64,000 nucleotides of DNA, from the IMG/VR virus record IMGVR_UViG_2724679538_000004, positions 32,001-96,000 of that record. One strand, given 5' to 3'. This document shows positions 8,981-50,376 of the stretch, piece after piece. Numbering within the stretch: the stretch's first letter is position 1; each line of letters opens with the position of its first letter. The position numbers were made by a program, and so were the translations under genes. The stretch is from a virus (taxonomy: Duplodnaviria; Heunggongvirae; Uroviricota; Caudoviricetes). The notes beneath the pieces are model-generated. The model worked only from the letters and a program-made list of their open reading frames with translations. It ran no database searches and was not told the origin of the DNA.

Positions 8981-9036
8981 TAACACCAACCACTGCGGTG
9001 AGTAGTCTGCTCACCGCATTCGTATCCAGCTCATTA

Positions 9037-9468
9037 TCCACTGTAGTCAGTAACAAAACCTTCCTACATATCTGCTAACCACTGTAGCGAGTAGACAGCC
9101 TTTCATTCGCATCAAACAACCACTATGGTGAGTATTGGAGTGAGATGTCCAGCGGGTATCCACTATGGTGAGTAAGCCTTTGCTGTTTTCAGTGGATATC
9201 CACTCGCCACAGTGGATACGCTCAAAGATGAGGGCGACAACAACCACTATAGACAGTAAATTTTCCAAGATACCCAGTGACCACTAACCTCGCAGCCCTT
9301 GTTTCATCAGTGTTAGTGATCACTAACATTTAATTCAGTATTTGCATTCTACTGCCTACAGTGGTTATCAACAGATAACGATACTCACTATAGTGGATAG
9401 CGAATTACAGATATAAGTAAGGCTCACTACAGTGGATAGTGAGCCTTACTACTAACTACAGTGGTTGG
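9037..9468. repeat. iteron array (about 10 copies, core CCACT(A/G)TAGTGG) downstream of repA; incA-like copy-control locus
   Basis: Repeated CCACTGTAG / CACTATAGTGGATA / CACTACAGTGGATAG units seen directly in the sequence. Confidence 0.75.
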
Positions 9469-9469
9469 G

Positions 9470-10525
9470 CTATTTGCGAGTCTTTGCCTTGCGCAACTCT
9501 TCGAGAAGCGCCAGTTCTTCTTTACTCAACATGACCATTTTGCCTTCTTTTTCGTCAGGCGCAACGTCGATAATGTCATCTTGATTCTCATCTGGGAGGC
9601 TATATTCCGTCTCATCATTATCGATTTTTGTTGATATTTGTGCCTGGCGTAACTTTGGCCGCCTATAGTGGATGACGAAGTAGACCGAGTTTCCGCGCTT
9701 AACTTCCGTGTAATCGAGATATCCTATCTCTCGCAGCTGTTCCATAGCCTTTCTTACCGTCGCATTCTGAGTAATAGTGCGACTTGTCAGATTAAGTCTG
9801 GCGCGTAAACGGGCTAGTGATATTGGTGCCGGATCAGGCGGCAAACTTTCAATAAAAGTATAAAGCGCCTGAGCGGATTCTTTTCTTGAGAGTTCGTTTA
9901 TAGCCCGGAGTTGCAGAAGAACCTTTTTGTCGAACTGGTAGAGTTCGAAAATCTTGGGATCTGCTTTCAGTTCGACCGTATCGTGCTTGACACTATATTT
10001 TGCCGTTTGCACAAGATGCGTTACGTAAAACTCATCAGAGCCTTTGCTACGGAACGAGATGGTATTTGTGGCAATACGGCTTAGCGAACTGTCCAGGCGT
10101 TTGCGTAACTTCGCTGATGACCTGGCGGTCGGAATGCCACACAGCCTTACAAACTCAACGAACGGCAACGTGACGGTATCGCCAACGACCTTGTGTTTGG
10201 CAAACGCGTGGATTATTCCCACCCACGTTTTAAAGTCGTTATCCATATCAAGCCGAAGGCCAGAGATCCTTATGTCTTCGTACCCTTCTGCTTTTGCCAG
10301 AGACAGCTGTTTGAGTTCAGCAGAGGCATCCATAGAGACCATTTGCCCCTTTCTTCCTCTGGATGTCGATTTCAGCGTCGGAACGAAGAGGCCCAGACGC
10401 ATCAAAGCAACAGGCTGAACAGTGTTATTAGTGTTAGGAACCAACGTAACAACTTCGCCTGTCTTTTTATCTGTTTCTGAAAATGCTTCAACGATCGCTA
10501 TGTTTTTATTGCCGTTTTCGCTCAT
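9470..10525 (-). CDS. repA: plasmid-type replication initiator RepA (iteron-binding, winged-helix)
   Basis: 351-aa protein flanked on both sides by iteron arrays; basic C-terminus; architecture matches P1/F-type replicons. Confidence 0.75.
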
Positions 10526-29479: not shown

Positions 29480-29580
29480 TGCGTGTCGGAGTTGAGGCTT
29501 TAGAAGCCATAGTTCATGTAATTCTGTTTACTTCACTTAGAAAACAACTTGTTTTGACAAATAACATATAGGAAAAACAC

Positions 29581-31093: not shown

Positions 31094-31110
31094 AGAAAAC
31101 AACTTGTTTA
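31094..31110 (+). promoter_or_regulatory. promoter/operator motif AGAAAACAACTTGTTTA
   Basis: AAACAA-N-TTGTTT family member upstream of 31129. Confidence 0.45.
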
Positions 31111-38105: not shown

Positions 38106-38319
38106 AGCAGAGTTATTTCAGAAAATATCGGCTCTCGCGGCTGAATGCCACGCTATAGCATCTGAGCTTGATGTTGGCGACGAACGAACCGAGATGTTCG
38201 AAATATACAGTGTACTGCGCAATCTCTCTCGGCGTGGCTACGCCATTCAGGTAGGGCGAGTGACTAATCCACTACTCACATCATGTGATGAGGATGACCC
38301 GGATGAGGATGACGAATGA
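38098..38319 (+). CDS. hypothetical protein with acidic C-terminus
   Basis: GTG 38098 with GGAG 7 nt upstream; the longer track ORF would overlap the previous gene by 150 nt. Confidence 0.4.
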   Translation: MNKAELFQKISALAAECHAIASELDVGDERTEMFEIYSVLRNLSRRGYAIQVGRVTNPLLTSCDEDDPDEDDE

Positions 38320-38699
38320 TGAATAAATCAGTAGCCGGTGAGTTTCAGAAGGAAGTCGATAATACCACTGTTCTATTGGACGATATTTTAAGCATTCTCG
38401 CGCTGCTTGAGGCTGGAGAATGGTCAGAACATTGCACCAAAACAGAGCTAGGCGGTCGGCTTGAAAGAGAGATTACACGGCTGATTAGCGATGCCCAAAA
38501 TTATTTGTCACCTGAGAACCTCCCTTGCGATGTAGTCCTTGTGCCAGGGATGAGGATACACGAAGGTGTCAGAACGAAAACATTATTGACCGCATTACAG
38601 AGAAGAGCCGAATTAAAGTCGCGGGTTAAGTTGATGCCATCGAAAATGCTTGATGCCATCAAATTTACGCAATCGCAACATACTGAGAGAGATAAATGA
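38316..38699 (+). CDS. hypothetical protein
   Basis: 127-aa ORF, ATGA overlap with previous gene. Confidence 0.5.
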   Translation: MMNKSVAGEFQKEVDNTTVLLDDILSILALLEAGEWSEHCTKTELGGRLEREITRLISDAQNYLSPENLPCDVVLVPGMRIHEGVRTKTLLTALQRRAELKSRVKLMPSKMLDAIKFTQSQHTERDK

Positions 38700-39325
38700 G
38701 CACGGTAGCGAAAGATCTCACAGAAGATATTCTCAATGAAATTATTGCTGGCGCGAATACCTCGCTTGAACAATATCTTGCGTTGGCGCTAAGAGCCGAA
38801 CGTCGAGACAGAAAGCATTTTTATGAGCGATTACCAGGGAAGCGACCAGATAGATCAGATGAAGAAGGTAGCGATATAGACTACATGGAACCTTTAGATG
38901 TTTATCAACTTGGTAAAGATGATGGCTGGAACGCTTATCACGATGCTGTGTTGAAGTTGGATGAAAAAGTGAAACCTCTTTCGCGACCAGTAGATCACGG
39001 TTTTCGCGATAACTGCGAGTGCTCTAGTTGTCAGATCACGGCTCGTATTTGTTCCGAATTAACAGATAAGTCCACCCTAATCTACGAAGTTAATGTAGGC
39101 GGTAATACATGGGTCGAATGCACAAGAGCTGCATACGTAAGAGCAAAAGACAACGGCGAATTGACCAGAGTTGTTACCCATCACCCAAATAATGTGCTTA
39201 AAGATCACCAGATTCGAGAACTAGTGAATGAATTGCGGGATATTGCGGTTACGTATCACGGAACGCAGCAATTGCGGGAGAAGATTGCCAGAGCAGTGAA
39301 CAACTCAATCCGTCCAGAAAAATAA
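38696..39325 (+). CDS. hypothetical protein
   Basis: 209-aa ORF, ATGA overlap with previous gene. Confidence 0.5.
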   Translation: MSTVAKDLTEDILNEIIAGANTSLEQYLALALRAERRDRKHFYERLPGKRPDRSDEEGSDIDYMEPLDVYQLGKDDGWNAYHDAVLKLDEKVKPLSRPVDHGFRDNCECSSCQITARICSELTDKSTLIYEVNVGGNTWVECTRAAYVRAKDNGELTRVVTHHPNNVLKDHQIRELVNELRDIAVTYHGTQQLREKIARAVNNSIRPEK

Positions 39326-39329
39326 GTAA

Positions 39330-39795
39330 TAGTACGATAAAGAGGCCCCATGCTCTTGATGGGGCCTGTAGCAACAAGCGTTATGGACGTTGGTTTACGT
39401 ACTCAATGATCGCTTTGATAATCGCGAACATCGGCGGCACGATTTTGAAAAGTAAGTTAAGCATAACAGGCCTCACTTAGTTTTATCGCGCCTAGCTGCA
39501 AATACCTTTGAGCTTGCCTTTGCAGTTGCAATATCTGTAGTCGCCAGATACTTACGGCACGATTTCGAGTTAAGGTAAGGTTTGAGAGTCACCAAAAACC
39601 TGGACTTAAATCTTCTTTGAGAACAATGATGTTTAGTAAATGGTCATTGTTACTAGGTATGACCACTCTACGTTTCTTGATGAATCCAGTACATTCGGTT
39701 AATCTTAACTCAGTCGCCAGATACTTATGGCTCAGGAACAGAGACGCAAACTCCGTTTCCTTTTAAAAAGCCCGGTCTAGTCAACTGGGCTTTTT
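39330..39795 (+). ncRNA. candidate non-coding RNA locus ending at a rho-independent terminator (hairpin 39769-39791 plus T-run)
   Basis: No ORF of 60 aa or more in any frame; direct repeats AGTCGCCAGATACTTA(C/T)GG at about 39537 and 39712; hairpins at 39341-39367 and 39495-39526. Confidence 0.3.
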
Positions 39796-40090
39796 AATGT
39801 CTGCTTTTTAACCAAACATACCCTCAATACTGCAACATCAGTGTCTTGCGAATCAAGATAGTGTGTATAGATTTTTCATGCAAGTGCATAAGTCTGTGGA
39901 TAACTCAGGAAGGAAAAAGTGACTTCCGCGCACTTTAGGCCGGACAAGGCCTTCGAAAAAGTCAATGGGAAGAAAAAATTTGTTAAAAATAACGTTTGTT
40001 TGAATTGTATATTTTATACCTGTCAATAGTTAGCATCTTATTAACATCTTTTTTAAGAGACAGAGTTTAAAAACATGTCGCTCCAACATA

Positions 40091-40110
40091 TACTGTATGT
40101 ACATACAGTA
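40091..40110 (+). promoter_or_regulatory. LexA operator (SOS box) TACTGTATGTACATACAGTA
   Basis: Perfect CTGT-N8-ACAG palindrome 17 bp upstream of the humD-like start. Confidence 0.85.
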
Positions 40111-40126
40111 TTAAGAGGCGAGTATT

Positions 40127-40516
40127 ATGGGATTCCCATCTCCTGCAGCGGATTATGTTGAAAGCCGTATTTCTCTTGATCGGCAGATAATTAGACATCC
40201 TTCAGCGACCTACTTCCTGCGAGCGGCTGATAGCCATCACCGCGAAGGAATATTGCAGGGGGCGCTGCTGGTGGTCGATTCTTCACTAACTCCGGTTGAT
40301 GGTTCACTGCTTGTATGTGCTATTGATGGGGAATTTCGTGTAAAAAAATACCGTAAGTATCCGCGTCAGTACCTGGAGGATTTAAGAACTGGCAAGAAGG
40401 AAGCATTGCCAAAGGATGACGATGGATGCACTGGCAGTACTGCCGTGTTTGGTGTCATCACTCACATTATCAACGACGCAAGAAGTGGCGAATTTGATGA
40501 TTGTCCTGTGATGTAG
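40127..40516 (+). CDS. humD: UmuD'-like protein (P1 HumD-like; begins at the position equivalent to the UmuD cleavage site)
   Basis: N-terminus MGFPSPAADYVE matches UmuD residues immediately after the Cys24-Gly25 cleavage site; conserved VDGEF(R/T)VKK; preceded by a LexA box; no umuC neighbour. Confidence 0.8.
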   Translation: MGFPSPAADYVESRISLDRQIIRHPSATYFLRAADSHHREGILQGALLVVDSSLTPVDGSLLVCAIDGEFRVKKYRKYPRQYLEDLRTGKKEALPKDDDGCTGSTAVFGVITHIINDARSGEFDDCPVM

Positions 40517-40560
40517 ATAGAAAGCCCTCGTTTGTATGAGGGCTTCTAGGTAAACACAAA

Positions 40561-41304
40561 TCACTGCATGTTGCCGAATTTTTTGTTAAGGCTTTTTCGT
40601 ATTGTCTCTATGGTTTTCTCCCTATCTGAATATAGTTCGCTAACTACATAGTCCATAATCTCAAAAGCACCTTCGATATCTTTGATCCGAACTTCATCAA
40701 ACGTATGACTGCCTGCATTCCCCAAGAACTTTATCGCCAAAAGATTTTGAGCAAGTTTGCTGCCCTCTTCCGGGATTTTTTCGATACGATGGTGCAATCG
40801 GATTGTCTTACCTTTATCATTTTGCGTAGGTATCCCCATAGAGGTAAGGATATTTTCTACAGCGATTCTGATTAGGTTTGCTGCGGCACCTTGCTGCATT
40901 AAAAAAATGGAAAAAGCAGCTTTCAGGGGGCCACTTACTTCATCCGGGCAGTTCTCTGGAATTTGAAAAACATTCAAGGAAGGAACAAAGCAAAGAGGTT
41001 TGTACCATTGATAATATTCGTCTGCCATTTCCTCTGGTTGGTAATCTCTATCCCATCCTGCCTTTCCTACGCAGGCAACCGCTTCGCCACATTTTGCTCG
41101 TGAACATTTGGCCATACAGCTGAAATAGGACTCAGACATATCGTAATCAAACCAATCTTCATTTTGTGCTTTCCTGGTACCTAAAGACTCCTCTTCAACA
41201 AAACTATCTTGCATGATTTCCAGAGTCTTTTGTCCGCAGACCGGACAAGGCCAGTCCACATGTTTATCGCTGTAAAATCGATGGGAAATTTTATGAATAG
41301 CCAT
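40561..41304 (-). CDS. zinc-ribbon protein with C-terminal HEPN/DUF4145-like segment (tentative)
   Basis: N-terminal CPVCG ... CMAKCSRAKCGEAVAC zinc-ribbon pattern; C-terminal LLAIKFLGNAGSHTFDEV resembles the R/K-x-x-G-N-x-x-x-H helix pair of DUF4145-type HEPN domains; only reverse-strand gene in its neighbourhood. Confidence 0.5.
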   Translation of the reverse strand: MAIHKISHRFYSDKHVDWPCPVCGQKTLEIMQDSFVEEESLGTRKAQNEDWFDYDMSESYFSCMAKCSRAKCGEAVACVGKAGWDRDYQPEEMADEYYQWYKPLCFVPSLNVFQIPENCPDEVSGPLKAAFSIFLMQQGAAANLIRIAVENILTSMGIPTQNDKGKTIRLHHRIEKIPEEGSKLAQNLLAIKFLGNAGSHTFDEVRIKDIEGAFEIMDYVVSELYSDREKTIETIRKSLNKKFGNMQ

Positions 41305-41448: not shown

Positions 41449-41514
41449 TAAATAAATTGTTTTCTACCTTTTCTTAATTGTGATAATAAACCACACAAGA
41501 AAACAAATTGTTTA
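41449..41514 (+). promoter_or_regulatory. conserved promoter/operator block (second copy of the 35524-35580 element, ending in AGAAAACAAATTGTTTA)
   Basis: Near-identical to 35524-35580. Confidence 0.5.
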
Positions 41515-41526
41515 GGAGTGGCAAAA

Positions 41527-41826
41527 ATGCTGAACATTACCCAAGCCTACCAGGTGGCATTGATTAGTGCATCTCATACATCAGAGGAAGATGCTCGCCG
41601 ATTCATGATCGCAAGCAATGAGCTGGATTGGGTTTCACAAATTGACGGCGGTTGTATTGTCCACGCCTGGTTACAGGATGATGTCTGGAAAGACAACTTG
41701 CGTCGATATGGTATATCCGAAGGCGCAATTGCTAACATTCAGAAAGTACTTGATGTAGGCTTTGACTCTGTACATTTCGATTGTGGCGCACCGGTCGTTG
41801 AAGGGCTTGAGTGCTGGAACTGGTAA
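41527..41826 (+). CDS. hypothetical protein
   Basis: AGGAG 8 nt before ATG 41527. Confidence 0.5.
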   Translation: MLNITQAYQVALISASHTSEEDARRFMIASNELDWVSQIDGGCIVHAWLQDDVWKDNLRRYGISEGAIANIQKVLDVGFDSVHFDCGAPVVEGLECWNW

Positions 41827-41862
41827 TCCGGCAAACGTTCCATACTATGTAACGGAGAATTT

Positions 41863-42048
41863 ATGCTTAAAGAGGACTCATATCTACTAAAGGCGCTTGA
41901 AATGCGTGGCGTTGAACCTACAGTGAAAAACGCTCACGATATCTACCTTCAGTTTTCACCGGAGCTGAAACGGCTCATAAATCAATACGGGGTTAATGAC
42001 TCAAGTGTTAAAGCAATGATAGATGATGAATTAGACCATCTCATCTAA
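41863..42048 (+). CDS. hypothetical small protein
   Basis: GGAG 6 nt before the ATG; 61 aa. Confidence 0.45.
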   Translation: MLKEDSYLLKALEMRGVEPTVKNAHDIYLQFSPELKRLINQYGVNDSSVKAMIDDELDHLI

Positions 42049-42200
42049 TCGTTTCCTATGATAATGGTTTTCACTTTGAGATTGTTATTTTTCATAGCCA
42101 AAGCTGATGTTTGTGGAAGGTGGATTGATAAACGGATGCGTATTTAGGTTATACAAGTGAGAAAATTGATAATATATAAACGCGATTTTTATGTGATGGA

Positions 42201-42770
42201 ATGGATGTAATGGAAACCCAGAACCAACAAACAAAACCTCTGAATAACATTTATGCGTGGATTCTAGCGTTCATGCCTTTCTTCTTTGCAGTATCGCCGG
42301 AAGAGTATACCAATTACGCTATTATAATTGGGGGTGTAACTACCATCGGTTTGTTAGTAGCTGACAGAATGGCTCTATCGGAGTCTGGCTGTGAACCACC
42401 TTCAATTCTATGGGGGGTATTCCTCCTGCCTGTCTATCTCTGGAAGCGCGCGACTATTACAAAAGGCAGCAGAGTGCCATTTATCATAATCGTTGCGTCG
42501 CTGGCTTGGGTTATCTTCATCGGCATCCCACACAAGGACGAGGTTGCTCTTGAAGAAGCAGCCTGCCCTCTCGTGACAACTATTCTGAAAGAGAATAACG
42601 GTTCGACTGCACCAAAATGTATGAAGGTGACAATAGAGGACAAGGTGACGGATAAGTTCTATAGAGCAACGGCTACACTAGACAATGGTAATGACATTAA
42701 CATTACTCTGGAACTTACCGGCGACAGGAACTTCTACGTCCGTGTTCCAAATGTTTATCTGAACAACTAA
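42201..42770 (+). CDS. integral membrane protein (about 3 TM segments) with C-terminal soluble domain
   Basis: Hydrophobic segments IYAWILAFMPFFFAV, AIIIGGVTTIGLLV, FIIIVASLAWVIFIG. Confidence 0.5.
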   Translation: MDVMETQNQQTKPLNNIYAWILAFMPFFFAVSPEEYTNYAIIIGGVTTIGLLVADRMALSESGCEPPSILWGVFLLPVYLWKRATITKGSRVPFIIIVASLAWVIFIGIPHKDEVALEEAACPLVTTILKENNGSTAPKCMKVTIEDKVTDKFYRATATLDNGNDINITLELTGDRNFYVRVPNVYLNN

Positions 42771-42889
42771 CGGTTGCAACTTATTGATAATGGCGGTCAC
42801 AATTTGATTCTTTTCTATAAGAATCCGTTGATCGCCACTACTCCCCTTCCATACCTGCAACCACATCCTTAAATATCAATTAGTTATAG

Positions 42890-43766
42890 TTGTTTATACC
42901 AATAAGAAAACAACTAAATAACAGATCAACGAAATGTCAATGCTTTCGCCCGATTTGGTCTATAAAATTGACGTTTTCACACATCACTTCTTATACCCGC
43001 AATCCTACGCAGCAGACAGCGCCACAGCGTCCAATTTTCACCACAGATGACCCAACAACTACCAATAAAAACACACGCTCAAAATCGCTCCCGTTGCGTT
43101 ACACAACCATATAAACAACTTGTTTTCAGGCATAACAAAACAACTAAATAACACATATGCCATTCCCCAAAACAACCAACCTCTTTATGGCAGGCTACCG
43201 AAAAGACCCACCTCTTCTTCCCAGGCTACCGGACAACCAACCTAACTTTCACAGGCAATTCGAAACCTCCATACGCGCGATACCCACGACACGCCATTCC
43301 CCAAATAGCGAAGAACCACCGAAACCCCAACGAAGCTTGTAACCGCAAGGATTTCCTCAATCCCAAAAGACACGAAACAGAACATTCGAGGGAAACGCCA
43401 TTACCCAATACACGAATAACTACAAAAGCCTTTCACGCACTCCATACAAGCAACTCAAACACAATAACGAAAGGAATCGCCCACCTGCCATTACTCCATA
43501 CACGGAGAAGAACAATCACCAAAACGTCGAGAACAACCCAGAGAAGAACCACCGCAAAACGAACGAAACCATATAAACCGACAGAGAGAACTACACACCC
43601 AATTCACCAACAGAAATAGTCGCCGTATAGAACGTTCAGGGAGGAGTGAGTATTAACGCCTATAGAGAGCTTGAGACAGATAAAACACGAAGAAAACACA
43701 ACATGTATAACGGAGAAGCCAGGTATGTATAAGTGGGGAGTGGAGGAGGGGTGTCGCCTCCTTTTT
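42890..43766 (+). ncRNA. A+C-rich, G/T-poor tract with ~100-bp-spaced GCCATT(A/C)CCCAA-type repeats; candidate long non-coding RNA(s) ending at hairpin GGAGG-loop-CCTCC plus T5 (43742-43766)
   Basis: Strong strand-asymmetric composition; promoter-like AAAACAACTAAATAACA at about 42913 and 43138; only low-complexity ORFs without RBS. Confidence 0.3.
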
Positions 43767-43830
43767 CGTATTTATTCAACTCCTGATTTTATCCCCCCGT
43801 AAAACCCCTACGGTCAGCCTTCGGTCCATA

Positions 43831-43970
43831 CAGGGAAAAGGTTGCATCCCGCTACAGAAACGGCTGGGTTGCCTTCGGGGAACGGCTGGAGGTTTTCAGG
43901 GAAACGGTCGAGTTGCCTGTGTGGGTTTCGGGAAAAGGCTCGATGCCGGTTCAGGAACGGTGGCGTACCG
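43831..43970 (+). repeat. array of about six ~21-bp direct repeats with core (C)AGGGAAA(A/C)GG / GGGAACGGCT (GGA-rich)
   Basis: cagggaaaaggttgcatccc, cagaaacggctgggttgcc, ggggaacggctggagg, cagggaaacggtcgagttgcc, cgggaaaaggctcgatgcc, caggaacggtggcgtaccgg. Confidence 0.6.
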
Positions 43971-44295
43971 GTATAGCGAGAGGGAGAGTTGCGGCTACCC
44001 ACCTGTAATGTGCGGGAAGAAGGGAGACTCTCACGTATAGGCGAACCTACTTCCCGCTGGATTCCCTCTGAATGCCCAGCTACAGCGTAATTGTGCCAGA
44101 CAGTCCGCGGGTCACAATCGATTTCAGTAGGTTTTCGGGGAGAGGATTATTCTGCCCACCAGCTCCCTGCGGCCAGTAAATCAGAATAATGTAAAAAGTG
44201 CCCACGGTACTGAACCTGAAAAGTCACTACTAAAACTGCATTTACCGGAATAAAACTCTTTTTCACCTATGTGTTATTGCGATAATAACACCAAC

Positions 44296-44313
44296 GAGAA
44301 AACAAGTTGTTTA
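44296..44313 (+). promoter_or_regulatory. promoter/operator motif GAGAAAACAAGTTGTTTA
   Basis: Palindromic AAACAA-N-TTGTTT core immediately upstream of RBS GGAG. Confidence 0.45.
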
Positions 44314-44323
44314 CGGAGTGGTA

Positions 44324-44635
44324 ATGAATACCTCATTGGTTCTTGGTCTTGCAGAAGGTCAGGACAGAAAAGAAAAGCCAACTTTGATGGGACACCTCAC
44401 ATTGTTGGATATCGTAGCGAACGGAACTTCTATTCGACTGTTTCGTGAAAAAGCTATTACCTTCGACAAAGTGAATTTAACGCGCTATGTGATGGTTGTT
44501 CGTCGCCAGCGAGGAAGAGGGTGGATGTCAGTTCAGAAAATGTGGCCAGAGGACCAGCTTGAACTGGCACTGATGGAAGTGAACCGCGTAGCCCAGCAAG
44601 AAATCCAACGAGCTTCTGTTCAGGCAGTGGCTTAA
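44324..44635 (+). CDS. hypothetical protein
   Basis: GGAG 5 nt before ATG 44324. Confidence 0.5.
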   Translation: MNTSLVLGLAEGQDRKEKPTLMGHLTLLDIVANGTSIRLFREKAITFDKVNLTRYVMVVRRQRGRGWMSVQKMWPEDQLELALMEVNRVAQQEIQRASVQAVA

Positions 44636-44761
44636 GCATGTGCAAGCAGTAGTTAGTCGAGTGTACGACAGCCCTGATTCCTTACAGGGCTTTTTTGTAT
44701 TGTAAGTAACTACTTACAATAATAGAATTACCTCGTTCGTTAACTTACATACAGGGAGAGT

Positions 44762-45160
44762 ATGATGAGCGTAAAACGCGAAAACCTGACAATCGATATG
44801 TACTATGCCTCTGAAAAAGCAGAAGACGAAGCGGTTGCAAAAATTACCGTGATGATTCGTGACAATGAATCTGGTGCAGAGGTACAAACAAGCACTCTTG
44901 TACGCACAGGAACAGGCGAAGAGGCGACTTATGCCGTCGGCTATCAGAATATCAACGATGCCACGGACCCGCTGTTACTTAAACTGGAAAACCACTTCCG
45001 CAGTGTCGATAAGGTGCTTTTTGAGAAGCTGATGGAAGCCGTGGATGAGGTGTATACCTCAAACCTCAACAGCAATACTACCTGGATGGGACAGTATGGC
45101 CTGCGAATTACCACCGGCGCTCAAGTAGAAACCGTCATCCCCGAAAGCGTATTCGCTTAA
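44762..45160 (+). CDS. hypothetical protein
   Basis: GGGAGAG RBS; 132 aa. Confidence 0.5.
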   Translation: MMSVKRENLTIDMYYASEKAEDEAVAKITVMIRDNESGAEVQTSTLVRTGTGEEATYAVGYQNINDATDPLLLKLENHFRSVDKVLFEKLMEAVDEVYTSNLNSNTTWMGQYGLRITTGAQVETVIPESVFA

Positions 45161-45277
45161 TCCTCTTTGAATGGCGCGTAAACCGCGCCATTTTCTTATG
45201 CCCGATAACAATTTGTTTTCTGCCTTATCTGATTTGTGAAAATGATTTCACTGAAGCAACTTAATAAGGAAACCATC

Positions 45278-45652
45278 ATGGAACTTGATATCTATATCGA
45301 GACGCAGCCTAAAAACGATCTGAATAACGAGGAATCCAGAAGACAGGTTGCTTACTTCCGCAAGTTCAATGCGCTCGTTGGGTGGATGGAGCGCAACGTA
45401 GGTGAAGTCGAAAATTGTGAGCTTTTAGAATTAACGATGAATGACATTTGTTTTCTGAAAGCTCATTTGATGCACATAAACGAAAGTAATTGCGAAGAGT
45501 ACTTACCTACACAGGAAGGGTTTTTCTTCGGCAGTCAGGAGTACGATGAAGGTTACTGGCATGACGTGGATAAGCTGAAAAAACTGGTGGAAGACCTGAT
45601 TAGGAACCACGACTTCCACAATAACAGACTGACATTTTGCGCCTGGTGGTAA
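45278..45652 (+). CDS. hypothetical acidic protein
   Basis: AAGGAAA RBS before ATG 45278. Confidence 0.5.
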   Translation: MELDIYIETQPKNDLNNEESRRQVAYFRKFNALVGWMERNVGEVENCELLELTMNDICFLKAHLMHINESNCEEYLPTQEGFFFGSQEYDEGYWHDVDKLKKLVEDLIRNHDFHNNRLTFCAWW

Positions 45653-45989
45653 ATATGGGGGATTTTAGAAAGCGTCTTAAGGAAAGAACTGAGCAGGCCA
45701 GGAGGCAAAACGCGTTTTCTGTTATCCGGTACGCGAAACAATTCAGTCGGAACAACAAGTCAGTTGAGGAAAAGATCCTCAGCGTAATAGGACGATAATT
45801 ATTGAGGCTACCAGCATGGATAGCCTCACTGACTTTTCTTATAACCGAAGGTTAGTTTTGAAACCTGGCTAATGACTTCCAGTACCTGTCTTGATAATTC
45901 AGCCTGCATTAACTTCTTTTCTGCCTTATCTACACTGCGATAATTACACCAACAAGAAAACAACATGTTTACGCAGTGAGGATATGCAC

Positions 45990-46271
45990 ATGACTGATTT
46001 CACCATTACTACCAAAGCACAAAATGTATTCCTTGAATCATGGCTGGACTTGCCGGAAACAGAACAGCAAGAAATGGATCATGTGGAATATGACGAGCAG
46101 GTAAGCACGCGATTCTTCCACTTTGAGGGCTGCGTTTACGATATTGCCGACTTCATGCGAGATGACCGCTTCCCTGAATGGCACGCAAGCTATCCACTTA
46201 ACGCCTTCGCCATGCTGATGATCCGTGTGGATGACTCAGGGGATACCATCGATGTCGGTTTGCTCCACTAA
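45990..46271 (+). CDS. hypothetical acidic small protein
   Basis: GAGGA RBS 8 nt before ATG 45990; 93 aa. Confidence 0.5.
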   Translation: MTDFTITTKAQNVFLESWLDLPETEQQEMDHVEYDEQVSTRFFHFEGCVYDIADFMRDDRFPEWHASYPLNAFAMLMIRVDDSGDTIDVGLLH

Positions 46272-46301
46272 ATAATAAGGGACCACCAGCATTGGTGGCT
46301 C

Positions 46302-46574
46302 TTATATCATTTTTGCGAGCTTATTCATTTTGGTGAAGTCAATTGGCAATTCGGCCAAAGGTATCAAATAGTCTTTTTGTGCCCAGAAGTTTGGAGATCT
46401 GCCCACTACATACGAAAGCCGATAAGCGTCTTCATCGGTAATCGGCTTTCTTTGTTCTAGTATAGCTTCAGCATAGTCGATACTAACCGCCATGCTGCGA
46501 GCCAATAATTCAACCCCAATACCGTAATCGTCATAAATGGCATCAAGAAATTTTTTCACATCAAGTTGGGACAT
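46302..46574 (-). CDS. XRE/HigA-like helix-turn-helix regulator (tentative)
   Basis: GRSPNFWAQKDY resembles the G-x-S-P-x-F-W motif of HigA/VapI-type HTH proteins. Confidence 0.45.
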   Translation of the reverse strand: MSQLDVKKFLDAIYDDYGIGVELLARSMAVSIDYAEAILEQRKPITDEDAYRLSYVVGRSPNFWAQKDYLIPLAELPIDFTKMNKLAKMI

Positions 46575-46769
46575 ATGATTATCTCCTCAAATAAGCCAAG
46601 TTTTTATTATATAACGATATTTTTCGATTGTGGGTAATATGATTACACCCGCAGGCTAAAAACACCAACCTCTTACCTCCAGGCTACCGATTAACCCACC
46701 TGTTCCCGTCCGGCTACCGCAACTTTCCACTTTGACGCCTTATTCGTACAACGATAATTAACACCAACA

Positions 46770-46786
46770 AGAAAACAATTTGTTAT
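46770..46786 (+). promoter_or_regulatory. promoter/operator motif AGAAAACAATTTGTTAT
   Basis: Same element family as 44296, 45204, 45954. Confidence 0.45.
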
Positions 46787-46805
46787 TTACGATAAGGAAT
46801 TAATC

Positions 46806-47288
46806 ATGAATTTTATCGTTACTGTAAACGCACCCGCACATGGCAATATCGCTGTAACGTTCTCTGACATTGAAAAACGAGTACTTGGTGCATGGCGCGA
46901 CAATGAGACGGTAGAACTGTCAGCACAAGAAAAATGCATTATTGCACGCGACATCATTGGTAATCGTCGTTACTCGCGGGTATTTGAGAAAGCGTATGTG
47001 GTAAATTCTGGATTCGGAACGTTCGTCTTTCCGGTGCGCTCCGGGCGATTCTGCCAGTCCAAGCTGATTGAGTTCGCTACGCAGATTTCTGTCTGGATTA
47101 AAACTCAATCGTCGTTCAAATTTTCCGACGATGAAGCAGTATCGCAGGGGATGCGGATCGCCAACAATGCGATAAAATGCAAAAACATTACGTATGCCGC
47201 TGGCGTTGACACATGGAAACTGTTTTGCGCTAACTTTATGCTGAATGTATACGCAAGCAACCGCATCCACATCCTTGATGGCGTGTAA
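46806..47288 (+). CDS. hypothetical protein
   Basis: AAGGAAT RBS; 160 aa. Confidence 0.5.
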   Translation: MNFIVTVNAPAHGNIAVTFSDIEKRVLGAWRDNETVELSAQEKCIIARDIIGNRRYSRVFEKAYVVNSGFGTFVFPVRSGRFCQSKLIEFATQISVWIKTQSSFKFSDDEAVSQGMRIANNAIKCKNITYAAGVDTWKLFCANFMLNVYASNRIHILDGV

Positions 47289-47294
47289 CTGAGA

Positions 47295-47320
47295 AGAGGG
47301 CCAGAAACGGCCCTTTCTCT
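47295..47320 (+). terminator. rho-independent terminator (AGAGGGCC-AGAAAC-GGCCCTTT)
   Basis: Hairpin with T-rich tail after the stop at 47288. Confidence 0.6.
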
Positions 47321-47324
47321 ATAG

Positions 47325-47455
47325 CCACCAGCTGCCGCAGGGAAATTTTCAGAAACGGCGAGGAACGCATTCATGAACCGACGGGAAACGGCCAAGATTT
47401 TTTCGGGAAACGGCTGCATTCGCCTTTATGTAGAAAAACATCGGGAAGCTGGTGG
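47325..47455 (+). repeat. second GGA-rich repeat array (GGGAAATTTTC, AGAAACGGCG, GGGAAACGGCC, GGGAAACGGCT) enclosed by 9-bp inverted repeat CCACCAGCT / AGCTGGTGG
   Basis: Same core motif as the 43831-43970 array; flanking inverted repeat about 110 nt apart. Confidence 0.6.
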
Positions 47456-47880
47456 AATCCAACCAGCGGTTGTCGGACAGGTGAGCGCGGAAAATAATGA
47501 TGACTTTCGTCGCCTGAGACATACAGATTTCTTTCATAGCGTAATCACATACGTGATTAAGTAGTGTGATTATGTGAAAAATCACGCGCACATAATACGC
47601 GAGCGGATAAAGAACAACACAAAATGCCGATCCGCGCCGACAAATAAACGCGGATCACATAGCAAGACTAATAACCAATGATTAGCCATACATTATAACG
47701 CAATATAACGCGATTTAAGCGCGTTAATGTGTTAAGTAATGGGTATGTACTGGTAAGGATGTAAAAGCGCGTCTATGGTGTTATTTTGGCGCTTATTTTT
47801 ATGTTGTTGGAGTGAGTCAAAGACAATAAAAAAACGCGCCATTGATGGCGCGTTATTGTGGAAGTATTGGAAACGAAAAA

Positions 47881-48181: not shown

Positions 48182-48832
48182 TTACGCTTTGAAAGCATCA
48201 GCCAGATAGTTATAGAAATCATTTTTAATAAAGCGATATTGCTGCGTACCAGCTTTTGCGCTTCCCATTCCTTTGACTTTCTCAACAAGTCCAAGACGTT
48301 CACAAAGATTAATTAGCTGATTAGCTTGAGTATAGCCAGCGTCAAGTTTAATCTCACACGCTTTTTTAGCTTCATTCATTAAATCGAAAACAGCGCCATT
48401 TGTGAACGTCTCGATCTCGTCGTTAATCATATCGATTAAAGCGAATACACGAGATCCTGACATATCAGCGACGGAATATACACATGTTCCAGCTTTAATA
48501 GATTTAACAAGATAAACCAGCTTTTCCAGTGAATAACTATTAGTCATAGCGTCACGGAAAAATACTTCTGGGGCTTGTTTACTTGCTTTAATCGCATAGT
48601 AGAAAACAGAACATAATTTATCGTCTTCTACTGCGTTAACCACGTTGTTGATGAAGTAAGCAAGCTTAGTGGTCGCAGCTTGCATATTTGCTTTGTCTGC
48701 TTTAGTGTGCGTACCATTTTTATAATGTTCGTTATATGTTTGAGTTGCCAGATCTGCTTTTTCGCGCAGCTCATCGGATACAATGGAAGCAGCTTCAATG
48801 ATGGATTTTTTAGAAATGATAATGTTAGCCAT
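48182..48832 (-). CDS. hypothetical protein (AT-rich codon usage)
   Basis: 216-aa ORF with GGAAAATTATC RBS context. Confidence 0.55.
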   Translation of the reverse strand: MANIIISKKSIIEAASIVSDELREKADLATQTYNEHYKNGTHTKADKANMQAATTKLAYFINNVVNAVEDDKLCSVFYYAIKASKQAPEVFFRDAMTNSYSLEKLVYLVKSIKAGTCVYSVADMSGSRVFALIDMINDEIETFTNGAVFDLMNEAKKACEIKLDAGYTQANQLINLCERLGLVEKVKGMGSAKAGTQQYRFIKNDFYNYLADAFKA

Positions 48833-49427: not shown

Positions 49428-49952
49428 TCAAAAAGGCAAAATTCGTTCAACCCAATCGAACAAAACAACTATTTTTCTACCGTTCTCGACACGTAGTGTA
49501 ACCTGACAAGCATCTGCGCCTGCTGACACCCCCTCAATTTCACGGCCATCCGCCATGTACACCCTTATAGATTTGTTTGCTTTATGGGCCTGGTTGCAAA
49601 TTGCAAAAAAATCACGGCGTGATGGCCGATTGTCAACATAATCAGGGTGAACTGTTAATCGACCTTTGAAATCGTGAGCGATACCGTCAACCACACCTGA
49701 TTCAATTGTACTAATGCGTTCAAGTGGAAGCCTTATACGATTTTCTTTGTCAAAAGGGGCTGGGCAAAGATCAACTTTGTTACGAGATGGCATGAGACCA
49801 TAAACGTACATGCAAAACGCCTGGCCATCTTCGAGAGTGGCCCTTACAGGAATTTGTTCTCTGCGCCAGAACATCAGGAGGTTTTCAATATTCTTATAAT
49901 CTCGCGGCCAGACCTCCGCTGGCACGCCGTAGGTGATGTCTTTAGTCGTCAT
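49428..49952 (-). CDS. hypothetical protein
   Basis: ATG at 49952, 4 nt after the lipoprotein stop; the longer track ORF would overlap the upstream gene. Confidence 0.5.
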   Translation of the reverse strand: MTTKDITYGVPAEVWPRDYKNIENLLMFWRREQIPVRATLEDGQAFCMYVYGLMPSRNKVDLCPAPFDKENRIRLPLERISTIESGVVDGIAHDFKGRLTVHPDYVDNRPSRRDFFAICNQAHKANKSIRVYMADGREIEGVSAGADACQVTLRVENGRKIVVLFDWVERILPF

Positions 49953-49956
49953 GTCA

Positions 49957-50376
49957 TTATAAAGTTGTTGGCAATATATCCATTGTACCATCCCAGGTTG
50001 TGAAGACCCGATATGTTTTAGCATCGTTTTGTTTTAGCCTTATTTCTCGCTCCATCCGAGAAGGGTTAAATGCGCAAAGCCCTGAGCTTTCAATTGATGT
50101 GCCAACTATCCACTCACCTTCATTAAGAAAGAAGGTGACTTTTTCTCCTGGTTTCAACTTGGCGGATGTCTCACCATTGATAAAAATGGAGGCATAACAG
50201 CCTGAGCCTACAAGACCTTTGTCTCGAACAATCGTTAATGTTGATACATTTGGCGTCTGGTATTTGAAGATTCTTTCTTGAGGCGCAACTTTCGCTTTTG
50301 AAACTGAGATAGAGGAGGATGAACACCCAATTAGAGAGGCCCCAAACATTAAAATAATGAATTTTGTAGCTTTCAT
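49957..50376 (-). CDS. lipoprotein
   Basis: MKATKFIILMFGASLIGCSSS is a signal peptide with lipobox LIGC. Confidence 0.6.
   Translation of the reverse strand: MKATKFIILMFGASLIGCSSSSISVSKAKVAPQERIFKYQTPNVSTLTIVRDKGLVGSGCYASIFINGETSAKLKPGEKVTFFLNEGEWIVGTSIESSGLCAFNPSRMEREIRLKQNDAKTYRVFTTWDGTMDILPTTL

What the first reader, a model, noticed from the sequence alone, without database searches (positions are those of the whole stretch)
43831..43970. Array of six ~21-bp GGA-rich direct repeats (core GGGAAACGG) downstream of the A+C-rich tract
Six tandem units each carry CAGGGAAA, GGGGAAC or CAGGAAC followed by CGGCT/CGGTC, on the same strand as the upstream candidate RNA, in a purine-rich context that continues to about 44180. 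Repeated GGA motifs are the hallmark of CsrA/RsmA-titrating sRNAs (CsrB/RsmZ type); alternatively this is an iteron-like DNA array bound by a plasmid or phage protein (partition or replication control) distinct from the repA iterons.
Basis: partly seen in the sequence, partly recalled or inferred. Interest (0 to 1): 0.65.

Follow-up and report, generated by a model that had tools for sequence, protein, structure and literature searches.

The report
Conserved iteron-like repeat arrays, phage-plasmid
Six copies of a 9-base motif spaced exactly two or three DNA turns apart, plus a second smaller cluster 3.4 kb away, are conserved across SSU5-type phage-plasmids and look like docking sites for an unidentified DNA-binding protein, not a CsrA-sponge RNA.

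Summary
Window 43833-43960 holds six same-strand copies of SRGRAAMGG (core GRAAMGG) with start-to-start spacing 22-22-22-31-22.

A second array sits at 47302-47413. In a 111-kb relative, 10 of 13 motif copies lie in these two arrays.

The window is an SSU5/pHCM2-type phage-plasmid. Motif and register are kept in E. coli, Salmonella and Enterobacter lineages at about 50-70% identity. Klebsiella-type lineages keep 3-4 units at about 22. The 13-nt spacers diverge freely: 78% of motif columns are invariant against 35% of spacer columns.

The CsrA/RsmA-sponge reading is not supported:
- There is no Rfam hit.
- Predicted folding is no better than shuffled sequence.
- There is no robust covariation.
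- GGA is not the invariant part of the motif.
- RNA-seq of a 93%-identical lysogen shows only background signal.

A protein-coding reading is also rejected.

Its geometry matches the phage P1 iterons. The last unit lies a fixed 11 nt from a conserved TATAG element.

The binder and function remain inferred. The best candidate is a conserved winged-helix protein encoded at 48182-48832. I file it as a new member of a known kind, of moderate interest.

The parts
43833..43960 (+). Array A: six units of SRGRAAMGG at 43833-41 (GGGAAAAGG), 43855-63 (CAGAAACGG), 43877-85 (GGGGAACGG), 43899-907 (GGGAAACGG), 43930-38 (GGGAAAAGG) and 43952-60 (CAGGAACGG). Spacing is 22, 22, 22, 31, 22.
   Evidence: The register is conserved across lineages. 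Motif columns are 78% invariant against 35% for spacers.
43968..43979 (+). CCGGTATAGCGA: a conserved YCGG-TATAG element. TATAG (43972-43976) starts 11 nt after the last unit and is followed by a purine-rich stretch.
   Evidence: The 11-nt distance is kept in the E. coli, SSU5, Klebsiella, K. quasipneumoniae (L212) and Serratia (L213) lineages. In the distant relative L218 the motif lies 5 nt from TATAG or TATAAG three times.
43728..43769 (+). Conserved TATAAG (43728-33), then a G-rich hairpin (43742-43764) and a T-run. It resembles a terminator in the E. coli lineage. Its many G-U pairs only work in + strand RNA.
   Evidence: terminator scan., helix 1: 10 pairs, one compensatory (AU:6 GC:5 GU:3), several GC/GU switches.
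42950..43650 (+). A+C-rich, G-poor tract upstream of array A. It belongs to the same conserved gap of about 1.5 kb without annotated genes (42771-44317).
   Evidence: GC skew is -0.3 to -0.57. A+C is 0.60-0.78 from -900 to -100 of the TATAAG anchor in all 10 lineages tested, although the sequence is poorly conserved.
47298..47319 (+). Intrinsic terminator after the 160-aa gene: GGGCC-AGAAAC-GGCCC followed by TTTCTC. The loop and 3' arm carry a motif copy (47302-47310, CAGAAACGG).
   Evidence: The stem covaries between lineages (GGGCC/GGCCC against GGGGC/GCCCC).
47339..47413 (+). Array B: a partial unit CAGGGAAA (47339-46), then CAGAAACGG (47350-58), GGGAAACGG (47383-91) and GGGAAACGG (47405-13). 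Spacing is 33 then 22. TATGTAG follows at 47427-33.
   Evidence: Conserved in SSU5 and five other relatives, with spacing 33/34 then 22.
44318..47288 (+). Cassette of small genes of unknown function bracketed by the two arrays. The 105-aa gene (44318-44635) and the 160-aa gene (46806-47288) are present in the closer lineages. The others vary. One HTH gene lies on the - strand (46302-46574).
   Evidence: All are at or near background in LF82 lysogens.
48182..48832 (-). 216-aa protein and candidate binder (inferred only): an N-terminal coiled coil plus a C-terminal winged-helix domain. Its operon ends just beyond array B.
   Evidence: AF2 model with pLDDT 83 and alpha1-beta1-alpha2-alpha3-beta2-beta3 topology at residues 126-201. 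Foldseek hits are weak (E 3e-3 to 0.1) but give probability 0.99-1.0 to the winged-helix domains of Orc1/Cdc6, RTP and TubR. It is 83-87% identical across lineages, against 55-68% for its neighbours. It is the only tested neighbour still present in L216 and L218, which keep motif clusters.

Best explanation
The two arrays are most likely double-stranded DNA elements, not RNA. They are clusters of same-orientation binding sites (iterons) for a sequence-specific DNA-binding protein encoded by the phage-plasmid.

Proposed mechanism:
- Sites spaced at 22 or 31 bp (two or three helical turns) would place bound protein on roughly one face of the helix and favour cooperative binding.
- The last site sits at a fixed distance from a conserved TATAG element followed by purines. 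I read that element as an initiation site.
- My leaning is that the arrays control rightward transcription of the early-gene cassette they bracket. The cassette is silent in lysogeny.
- The two arrays, 3.4 kb apart, could also pair with each other.
- A role as the lytic replication origin is the close second (see rivals).
- The best candidate binder is the winged-helix protein at 48182-48832.

What is shown: the motif, the register, the conservation pattern, the restriction to two sites in the genome, the absence of RNA or coding signatures, and the lack of expression in lysogens.

What is inferred: that a protein binds, which protein it is, and what is initiated.
For: - Same-strand copies have spacing 22-22-22-31-22 and 33-22. 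Annotated P1 RepA iterons show the same geometry: 22, 21, 21, 21 in oriR and 31, 30, 31, 31, 31, 40, 41, 31 in incA.
- The register is identical in lineages only about 50-70% identical overall. Two relatives (L167, L169) lack one whole unit. The Klebsiella type turns the 31 spacing into 22.
- Conservation is punctate. Motif columns are 78% invariant (entropy 0.18 bit), spacers 35% (0.59) and flanks 45% (0.48).
- The 22-nt period puts the motif in all three reading frames, so the constraint acts on nucleotides.
- In a whole relative plasmid, 10 of 13 motif copies lie in the two arrays.
- There is no RNA-structure signal and no Rfam hit.
- Expression in lysogens is at background.
- The motif-to-TATAG distance of 11 nt is conserved.
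- The array-cassette-array layout is conserved.
- A motif cluster next to a homologue of the 216-aa protein persists in L218, where the protein is 36% identical. In L216 (34%) the cluster is replaced by a palindromic variant, GGGAAAACGTTCCC.
Against: - No binding has been shown.
- The fold evidence for the winged-helix domain of the 216-aa protein is weak (best E = 3e-3).
- A Serratia lineage keeps that protein at 63% identity but has only one motif unit and no array B.
- Spacing is irregular in the distant lineages: 24, 10, 26 in L212 and 19, 39, 16, 49 in L218. Helical phasing is therefore not universal.
- The TATAG hexamers (TATAGC, TACAGA, TATAGA) lack the T at -7 of a sigma-70 -10 box. 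No sigma-70 promoter was predicted there.
- No Rep-type gene, AT-rich unwinding element or DnaA box lies beside the arrays.
- All motif copies share the orientation of the flanking genes, which an RNA role would also explain.
- The expression data cover lysogens only, not the lytic cycle.
Confidence: 0.55

Rival explanations
1. The arrays are the iterons of the phage (lytic) replication origin and its control locus. An initiator binds array A and/or B, as in the P4 ori/crr pair or P1 oriR/incA. Replication, not transcription, starts near the TATAG element.
For: - The iteron geometry equals that of P1.
- Two arrays lie 3.4 kb apart and are distinct from the plasmid repA iterons.
- The element carries its own dnaE, a DnaB-like helicase and a ligase, but no lytic origin is annotated.
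- Chi sites at 47325 (-) and 47448 (+) flank array B with the polarity seen around an origin.
- The fold of the 216-aa protein weakly resembles initiator and terminator winged-helix domains.
Against: - No AT-rich unwinding region or DnaA box is adjacent.
- No recognisable initiator or helicase-loader gene is next to the arrays.
- Array B sits at a convergent gene junction.
- GC skew shows no inflection there.
- A Serratia relative has almost no array.
Confidence: 0.2
2. The repeats act in RNA during the lytic cycle. They would be single-stranded binding sites for an RNA-binding protein of the phage or host, serving as a sponge or as a cis-acting leader or antitermination element. They follow an unstructured A/C-rich, Rho-prone leader. 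One candidate is the FljA-like RNA-binding repressor encoded at 49428-50024.
For: - All copies are on the sense strand of the flanking genes.
- The upstream hairpin uses G-U pairs that work only in + strand RNA.
- The central A-run of the motif is predicted to be unpaired, with probability 0.7-0.98.
- Spacing is irregular in distant lineages.
- A FljA-family gene (Pfam PF03614, E = 2.5e-83) lies about 2 kb away. FljA-type proteins block fliC mRNA translation (PMC2652032).
- The E. coli fliC leader shares TGAGCCGACGGG with array B in 11 of 12 positions.
Against: - The fliC match is not significant (p = 0.054 for array B, 0.79 for array A).
- There is no stable or covarying structure.
- The array A region stays at log2 2.6-4.7 where the FljA-like gene reaches 7-8.
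- tblastn finds no FljA-like gene in the 10-13 kb held around the arrays of L216 and L218, which keep the motif clusters.
- Both arrays lie just downstream of terminator-like hairpins.
Confidence: 0.17
3. It is a CsrB/RsmZ-type sRNA that titrates CsrA.
For: Several units contain CAGGGA or CAGGA, which resemble the CsrA consensus. Multiple copies on one strand are typical of CsrB-type sRNAs (the consensus is from my own knowledge).
Against: - No hit to any Rfam family, including the Csr/Rsm families, at E<=10.
- CAGAAACGG units lack GGA, and the invariant core is RAAMGG.
- GGA is not consistently in loops.
- No promoter and terminator pair delimits an sRNA.
- Expression in LF82 is at background, whereas sponge RNAs are abundant.
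Confidence: 0.03
4. It is part of a protein-coding gene, as annotated in phage Cyrano (CYRAN_104, 134 aa).
For: The G/A-rich + strand has few stop codons, so long open frames exist. Cyrano carries an annotated ORF there.
Against: - Variable sites show no codon periodicity: 30, 33 and 34 of 64, 65 and 65 (p = 0.90).
- The Cyrano ORF depends on a 1-nt difference in a C-run. The window has no start codon in that frame.
- Close relatives differ by 1-nt indels.
- The 22-nt period is not a multiple of 3.
- The plasmid records listed show no annotated gene under the match.
Confidence: 0.01

Closest known systems
Plasmid and phage iterons, for example the P1 RepA iterons in oriR (incC) and incA
   Same: Both are short direct repeats in one orientation. 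Spacing is about 21-22 bp within a tight array and about 31 bp elsewhere (P1; here). Cores are conserved and spacers variable. There are two separate arrays a few kb apart. Unit number varies by whole units.
   Different: The sequence is unrelated to the P1 iteron GATGTGTGCTGGAGGGAAA and to this element's own repA iterons. No Rep-family gene lies between or beside the arrays. No DnaA box, Dam-site cluster or AT-rich region is present. The conserved core is only 9 bp.
Tandem activator sites abutting a -10 element, as in PhoB pho boxes or OmpR sites, and T4 MotA-dependent middle promoters (from my own knowledge)
   Same: Direct repeats have a 22-bp period. The last repeat sits a fixed 11 nt upstream of a TATA-type element and there is no -35 hexamer. 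The downstream genes are silent until a factor is made.
P4 ori and crr
   Same: Both have two clusters of the same short direct repeat several kb apart in a phage-plasmid type element (from my own knowledge).
   Different: P4 repeats are bound by the alpha primase-helicase. No such gene is near these arrays.
CsrB/RsmZ family of CsrA-sequestering sRNAs
   Same: Both have many GGA-containing purine-rich repeats on one strand.
   Different: There is no Rfam match. GGA is not invariant and not placed in loops. There is no discrete abundant transcript. The strict 22-nt register is not a Csr feature.

Membership tests
CsrB/RsmZ-type CsrA-titrating sRNA | Sequence and structure match to a curated family model (CsrB, CsrC, RsmX/Y/Z) | tested here: not met
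   cmscan of 41500-45500 at E<=10 gave only three chance-level hits to unrelated families.
CsrB/RsmZ-type CsrA-titrating sRNA | GGA is the invariant element of each repeat and lies in hairpin loops or single-stranded linkers | tested here: not met
   Units at 43855, 47302 and 47350 are CAGAAACGG, without GGA. The invariant positions are G3 and A5-G9. The 5' G's are paired with probability of about 0.5, and the MFE structures put some GGA in stems.
CsrB/RsmZ-type CsrA-titrating sRNA | Abundant discrete transcript with its own promoter and terminator | tested here: not met
   No promoter or terminator pair brackets the array. In LF82/Cyrano RNA-seq the covering ORF reads FPKM+5 of 17 and 11.5, which is background. 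These data are from lysogens only.
CsrB/RsmZ-type CsrA-titrating sRNA | Binding of CsrA | not testable with these tools
   Needs a gel shift or CLIP.
Iteron arrays (replication or copy-control repeats) | Three or more direct repeats in one orientation, spaced at about integral helical turns | tested here: met
   Spacing is 22, 22, 22, 31, 22 and 33, 22. P1 reference: 21-22 and 30-31/40-41. Spacing is irregular in two distant lineages.
Iteron arrays (replication or copy-control repeats) | Conserved core with variable spacer, conserved across relatives | tested here: met
   78% of motif columns are invariant against 35% of spacer columns over 14 sequences. The register is kept across lineages.
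Iteron arrays (replication or copy-control repeats) | Cognate initiator (Rep) gene adjacent | tested here: not met
   Neighbours have no Pfam Rep domain. Only a generic winged-helix candidate lies about 770 bp away. The repA gene is 35 kb away and has different iterons.
Iteron arrays (replication or copy-control repeats) | Adjacent AT-rich unwinding element and host-factor boxes (DnaA, IHF) | tested here: inconclusive
   GC is 56-60% across array A. No DnaA box was seen on reading the sequence. No formal scan was made.
Iteron arrays (replication or copy-control repeats) | Protein binding and origin or incompatibility activity | not testable with these tools
   Needs EMSA, ChIP and replication assays.
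Type III toxin-antitoxin RNA repeats (ToxI-like) | Near-identical tandem repeats of about 34-45 nt directly upstream of a toxin gene | tested here: not met
   Tandem Repeats Finder reports no array. Only 9 of every 22 nt repeat.
Protein-coding gene (CYRAN_104) | Conserved reading frame with third-position bias | tested here: not met
   (p = 0.90 for codon periodicity; the frame is broken in the window).
Activator-dependent promoter with tandem sites | Binding sites at a fixed distance from a -10 element, with no -35 | tested here: inconclusive
   The 11-nt distance to TATAG is conserved. The hexamer lacks the -7 T, and the sigma-70 scan finds nothing there. The transcription start site is unknown.

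The most novel reading that the evidence does not exclude
The whole conserved gap of about 1.5 kb would be one uncharacterised control module of SSU5-type phage-plasmids, working partly through RNA. Its parts are an A/C-only tract of about 700 nt, a G-rich hairpin, array A and the TATAG element, with array B as a partner. One version is a Rho-sensitive, structure-free leader followed by repeated protein-binding RNA sites that decide whether the early cassette is expressed. Another is a new type of transcription-coupled lytic origin. In either case the GRAAMGG repeats would be read by a protein family with no described relatives.
Probability: 0.12. Interest if true: 0.75.

Novelty: new member of a known kind. 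Interest (0 to 1): 0.45.

Why it matters
SSU5/pHCM2-type phage-plasmids are common in clinical E. coli, Klebsiella, Enterobacter and Salmonella; 716 plasmid records match this region. Some carry resistance genes.

The papers I could search describe neither their lytic origin nor their early-gene switch. This pair of arrays, together with the A/C-rich tract, is the most conspicuous conserved non-coding feature of the early region.

It gives a concrete target for finding that switch or origin. It could also help explain how these elements change copy number or enter lytic growth.

It corrects an ORF call in phage Cyrano as well.

Tried and rejected
- **Rfam scan:** nothing found.
- **Tandem Repeats Finder:** no array, because only 9 of every 22 nt repeat.
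- **Loose three-motif pattern on viral contigs:** mostly chance hits.
- **Stricter pattern on genome contigs:** 33 hits, all in unrelated MAGs.
- **GC skew of a whole relative plasmid:** it follows gene orientation and gives no origin signal.
- **Literature searches:** searches for SSU5/pHCM2 non-coding features, for iterons and for the motif string found nothing relevant. The FljA operator papers were not held.
- **P1 RepA iteron decoy idea:** rejected. Only GCTGGAGG and GGGAAA are shared, and the P1 core ATGTGTGCTGG is absent.
- **FljA decoy idea:** similarity to the fliC leader is not significant, and the held loci L216 and L218 keep motif clusters without a detectable FljA-like gene.
- **T7-like promoter idea:** raised by CTCACTATAGGG next to the motif in L218. 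No ORF in the window is large enough to be a single-subunit RNA polymerase apart from genes of known function, and there is only one such site.
- **GGTATARVG as a dispersed promoter motif:** 2 hits, at chance level.

Full report
**Context.** The window is an SSU5/pHCM2-type phage-plasmid.
- The region 42700-44400 is 93% identical to Escherichia phage Cyrano (the plasmid of E. coli LF82). It is up to 94% identical to many E. coli plasmids of about 110 kb.
- The finding lies in a gap of about 1.5 kb without credible ORFs (42771-44317).
- On its left are + strand genes, among them metG and a 189-aa gene. On its right is a run of small + strand genes of unknown function.
- The RefSeq-derived plasmid records I inspected annotate no gene under the region. 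A distant blastn search found it in 716 plasmid records from Klebsiella, Escherichia, Enterobacter, Salmonella, Citrobacter and Cronobacter.

**The observation.**
- The repeated element is the 9-mer SRGRAAMGG.
- It occurs 12 times on both strands of the window. Six copies are at 43833, 43855, 43877, 43899, 43930 and 43952, all on the + strand, with start spacing 22-22-22-31-22.
- Tandem Repeats Finder sees no array, because only 9 of every 22 nt repeat.
It has a copy in the loop of the terminator after the 160-aa gene, then copies at 47350, 47383 and 47405.
- In a 111-kb relative assembled from three fetched pieces, 10 of the 13 copies in the whole element lie in these two arrays.

**Conservation.** I collected about 50 relatives through a motif pattern on viral contigs and through plasmid hits. 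I reduced them to 23 representatives with pairwise identity down to about 35%.
- The six-unit register 22-22-22-31-22 is the same in the E. coli lineage and the SSU5/Salmonella/Enterobacter lineage, although the spacers differ.
- The Klebsiella-type lineages keep 3-4 units at about 22. Two relatives lack one whole unit.
- Over 14 aligned sequences, motif columns are 78% invariant (0.18 bit), spacers 35% (0.59 bit) and flanks 45%.
- Array B is conserved likewise, with spacing 33/34 then 22.
- The layout array A, 105-aa gene, variable genes, 160-aa gene, array B, then the convergent 216-aa and FljA-like genes is kept in the lineages that extend far enough.

**Not a CsrA sponge or structured RNA.**
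- No Rfam family matches.
- The + strand RNA of 43727-44000 folds less well than its shuffles (z = +1.21). The array alone gives z = -0.07, array B gives +1.58, and the - strand gives +0.18.
- RNAalifold assigns a covariation term of only -2.6 kcal/mol.
- The two robust measures of the pair count are at shuffle level. Pairs with change on both sides are 6 against 4.9 (137 of 500 shuffles). Pair types are 25 against 24.7 (277 of 500).
- Only the hairpin upstream of the array (43742-43764) has some support. It relies on G-U pairs, so it works only in + strand RNA.
- The invariant part of the motif is G-R-A-A-M-G-G, not GGA, and three units have no GGA.
- In published LF82 RNA-seq (PMC9928086, S1 Table), the ORF called over the A/C tract is at the floor. 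The ORF covering the hairpin and array A reads FPKM+5 of 17 and 11.5, the level of silent prophage genes. The upstream gene reads 57 and a highly expressed Cyrano gene about 7000.
- These data are from lysogens only.

**Not coding.**
- Variable sites show no codon periodicity (p = 0.90).
- The Cyrano ORF arises from a 1-nt difference in a C-run and has no start codon in the window.
- Close relatives differ by single-base indels.
- A 22-nt period cannot encode a peptide repeat.

**What it resembles.**
- The geometry is that of iterons. The annotated P1 record gives RepA iterons at 22, 21, 21, 21 in oriR and at 31, 30, 31, 31, 31, 40, 41, 31 in incA.
- The sequence differs from the P1 iterons and from this element's own repA iterons at 8985-9680.
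- In array A the last unit lies exactly 11 nt before a conserved YCGG-TATAG element in the E. coli, SSU5, Klebsiella, K. quasipneumoniae and Serratia lineages.
- In a distant relative (L218) the motif lies 5 nt before TATAG or TATAAG three times.
- This syntax suggests an initiation site controlled by the bound factor. The hexamer is not a good sigma-70 -10 box, and no start site is known.

**Who might bind.** Every neighbouring gene is of unknown function.
- **160-aa protein:** it gives a confident model with no fold match.
- **216-aa protein (48182-48832, - strand):** it models as a coiled coil plus a C-terminal winged helix. Foldseek matches to the DNA-binding winged helices of Orc1/Cdc6, RTP and TubR are weak but consistent. 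It is the most conserved protein of the neighbourhood.
- **In distant relatives:** it is also the only tested neighbour still present in L218 and L216 (36% and 34% identity). L218 keeps motif clusters. L216 has instead a palindromic variant, GGGAAAACGTTCCC.
- **Against it:** a Serratia lineage keeps the protein at 63% identity with only one motif unit.
- **FljA-family gene (49428-50024, Pfam E = 2.5e-83):** this raised the idea of an RNA decoy. The similarity to the fliC leader is not significant. The gene is expressed where the array region is not. tblastn finds no such gene in the 10-13 kb held for L216 and L218.

**Verdict.**
- The repeats are real, conserved and almost certainly functional.
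- The best-supported reading is a pair of iteron-like DNA binding-site arrays. They bracket an early-gene cassette that is silent in lysogeny and act at an adjacent TATAG-type site.
- I lean towards transcriptional control, with a lytic origin as the close second.
- An RNA-level role in the lytic cycle is not excluded. The specific CsrA-sponge idea is not supported.

Noticed in passing
window 44298-44313, 45204-45219, 45956-45971, 46771-46786, 41499-41514, 31095-31110, 29540-29555, 43112-43127 (-) and others: The near-palindromic 16-mer GAAAACAAGTTGTTTA occurs 23 times at up to 3 mismatches, against 0.96 expected. Most copies lie 5-30 nt upstream of the start codons of small + strand genes. 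One perfect inverted copy lies inside the A/C-rich tract. It is probably an operator (DNA) or a translational operator (RNA) of the early region.
   Followed up: partly
window, 16 sites; for example 44156-44163 (-), 46283-46290 (-), 47325-47332 (-), 47448-47455 (+): Chi sites (GCTGGTGG) occur 16 times in 64 kb, against 1.36 expected from shuffles. That is about the density I recall for the E. coli chromosome. Four lie in intergenic DNA around the arrays. The pair at 47325 and 47448 flanks array B and faces outward-in. A relative plasmid has 20 Chi sites.
   Followed up: partly
window about 42950-43650: This tract of about 700 nt is A+C-rich and G-poor on the + strand (A+C 0.6-0.78). The composition is conserved in all 10 lineages examined, including a very distant one, while the sequence mostly is not. 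As RNA it could not base-pair and would be an ideal Rho substrate. It reads zero in LF82 lysogen RNA-seq.
   Followed up: partly
window 49428-50024 (-): A 198-aa homologue of FljA, the repressor of phase-1 flagellin (Pfam PF03614, E = 2.5e-83), with a faint Hfq/Sm-like hit. Its Cyrano counterpart is expressed in lysogens (log2 7-8 in four of five conditions). The phage-plasmid may silence host flagellin.
   Followed up: partly
window 47545-47600: Four AATCAC/GTGATT heptads in inverted arrangement (AATCACATACGTGATT ... GTGATTATGTGAAAAATCAC) lie between array B and the terminator of the convergent operon. They look like an operator.
   Followed up: no
L218:7016-7027 (-): In a distant relative, the last motif of the array B equivalent is followed by CTCACTATAGGG. 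As I recall it, this is identical to the core of the T7 class III promoter (-8 to +3). No single-subunit RNA polymerase gene is evident in the window or its close relative.
   Followed up: partly
L167 and L169 (IMG/VR contigs), array A equivalent: Two E. coli-lineage relatives carry five instead of six units. The missing stretch is one whole unit (22 nt), as expected from recombination between repeats.
   Followed up: no
window about 38200-41300; relative plasmid locus L009:14949-18666: By annotation of close relatives, the phage-plasmid carries a full-length methionine-tRNA ligase (metG), an ApbC/MinD-like ATPase, a UmuD-like S24 peptidase and a DNA polymerase III theta subunit just upstream of the gap.
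   Followed up: no
L001:6954-7358 (Cyrano CYRAN_104) and L001:6108-6464 (CYRAN_103): The two Cyrano ORFs annotated over the non-coding gap are very likely false gene calls. They lack frame conservation and codon periodicity, and their expression is at floor or background level.
   Followed up: yes
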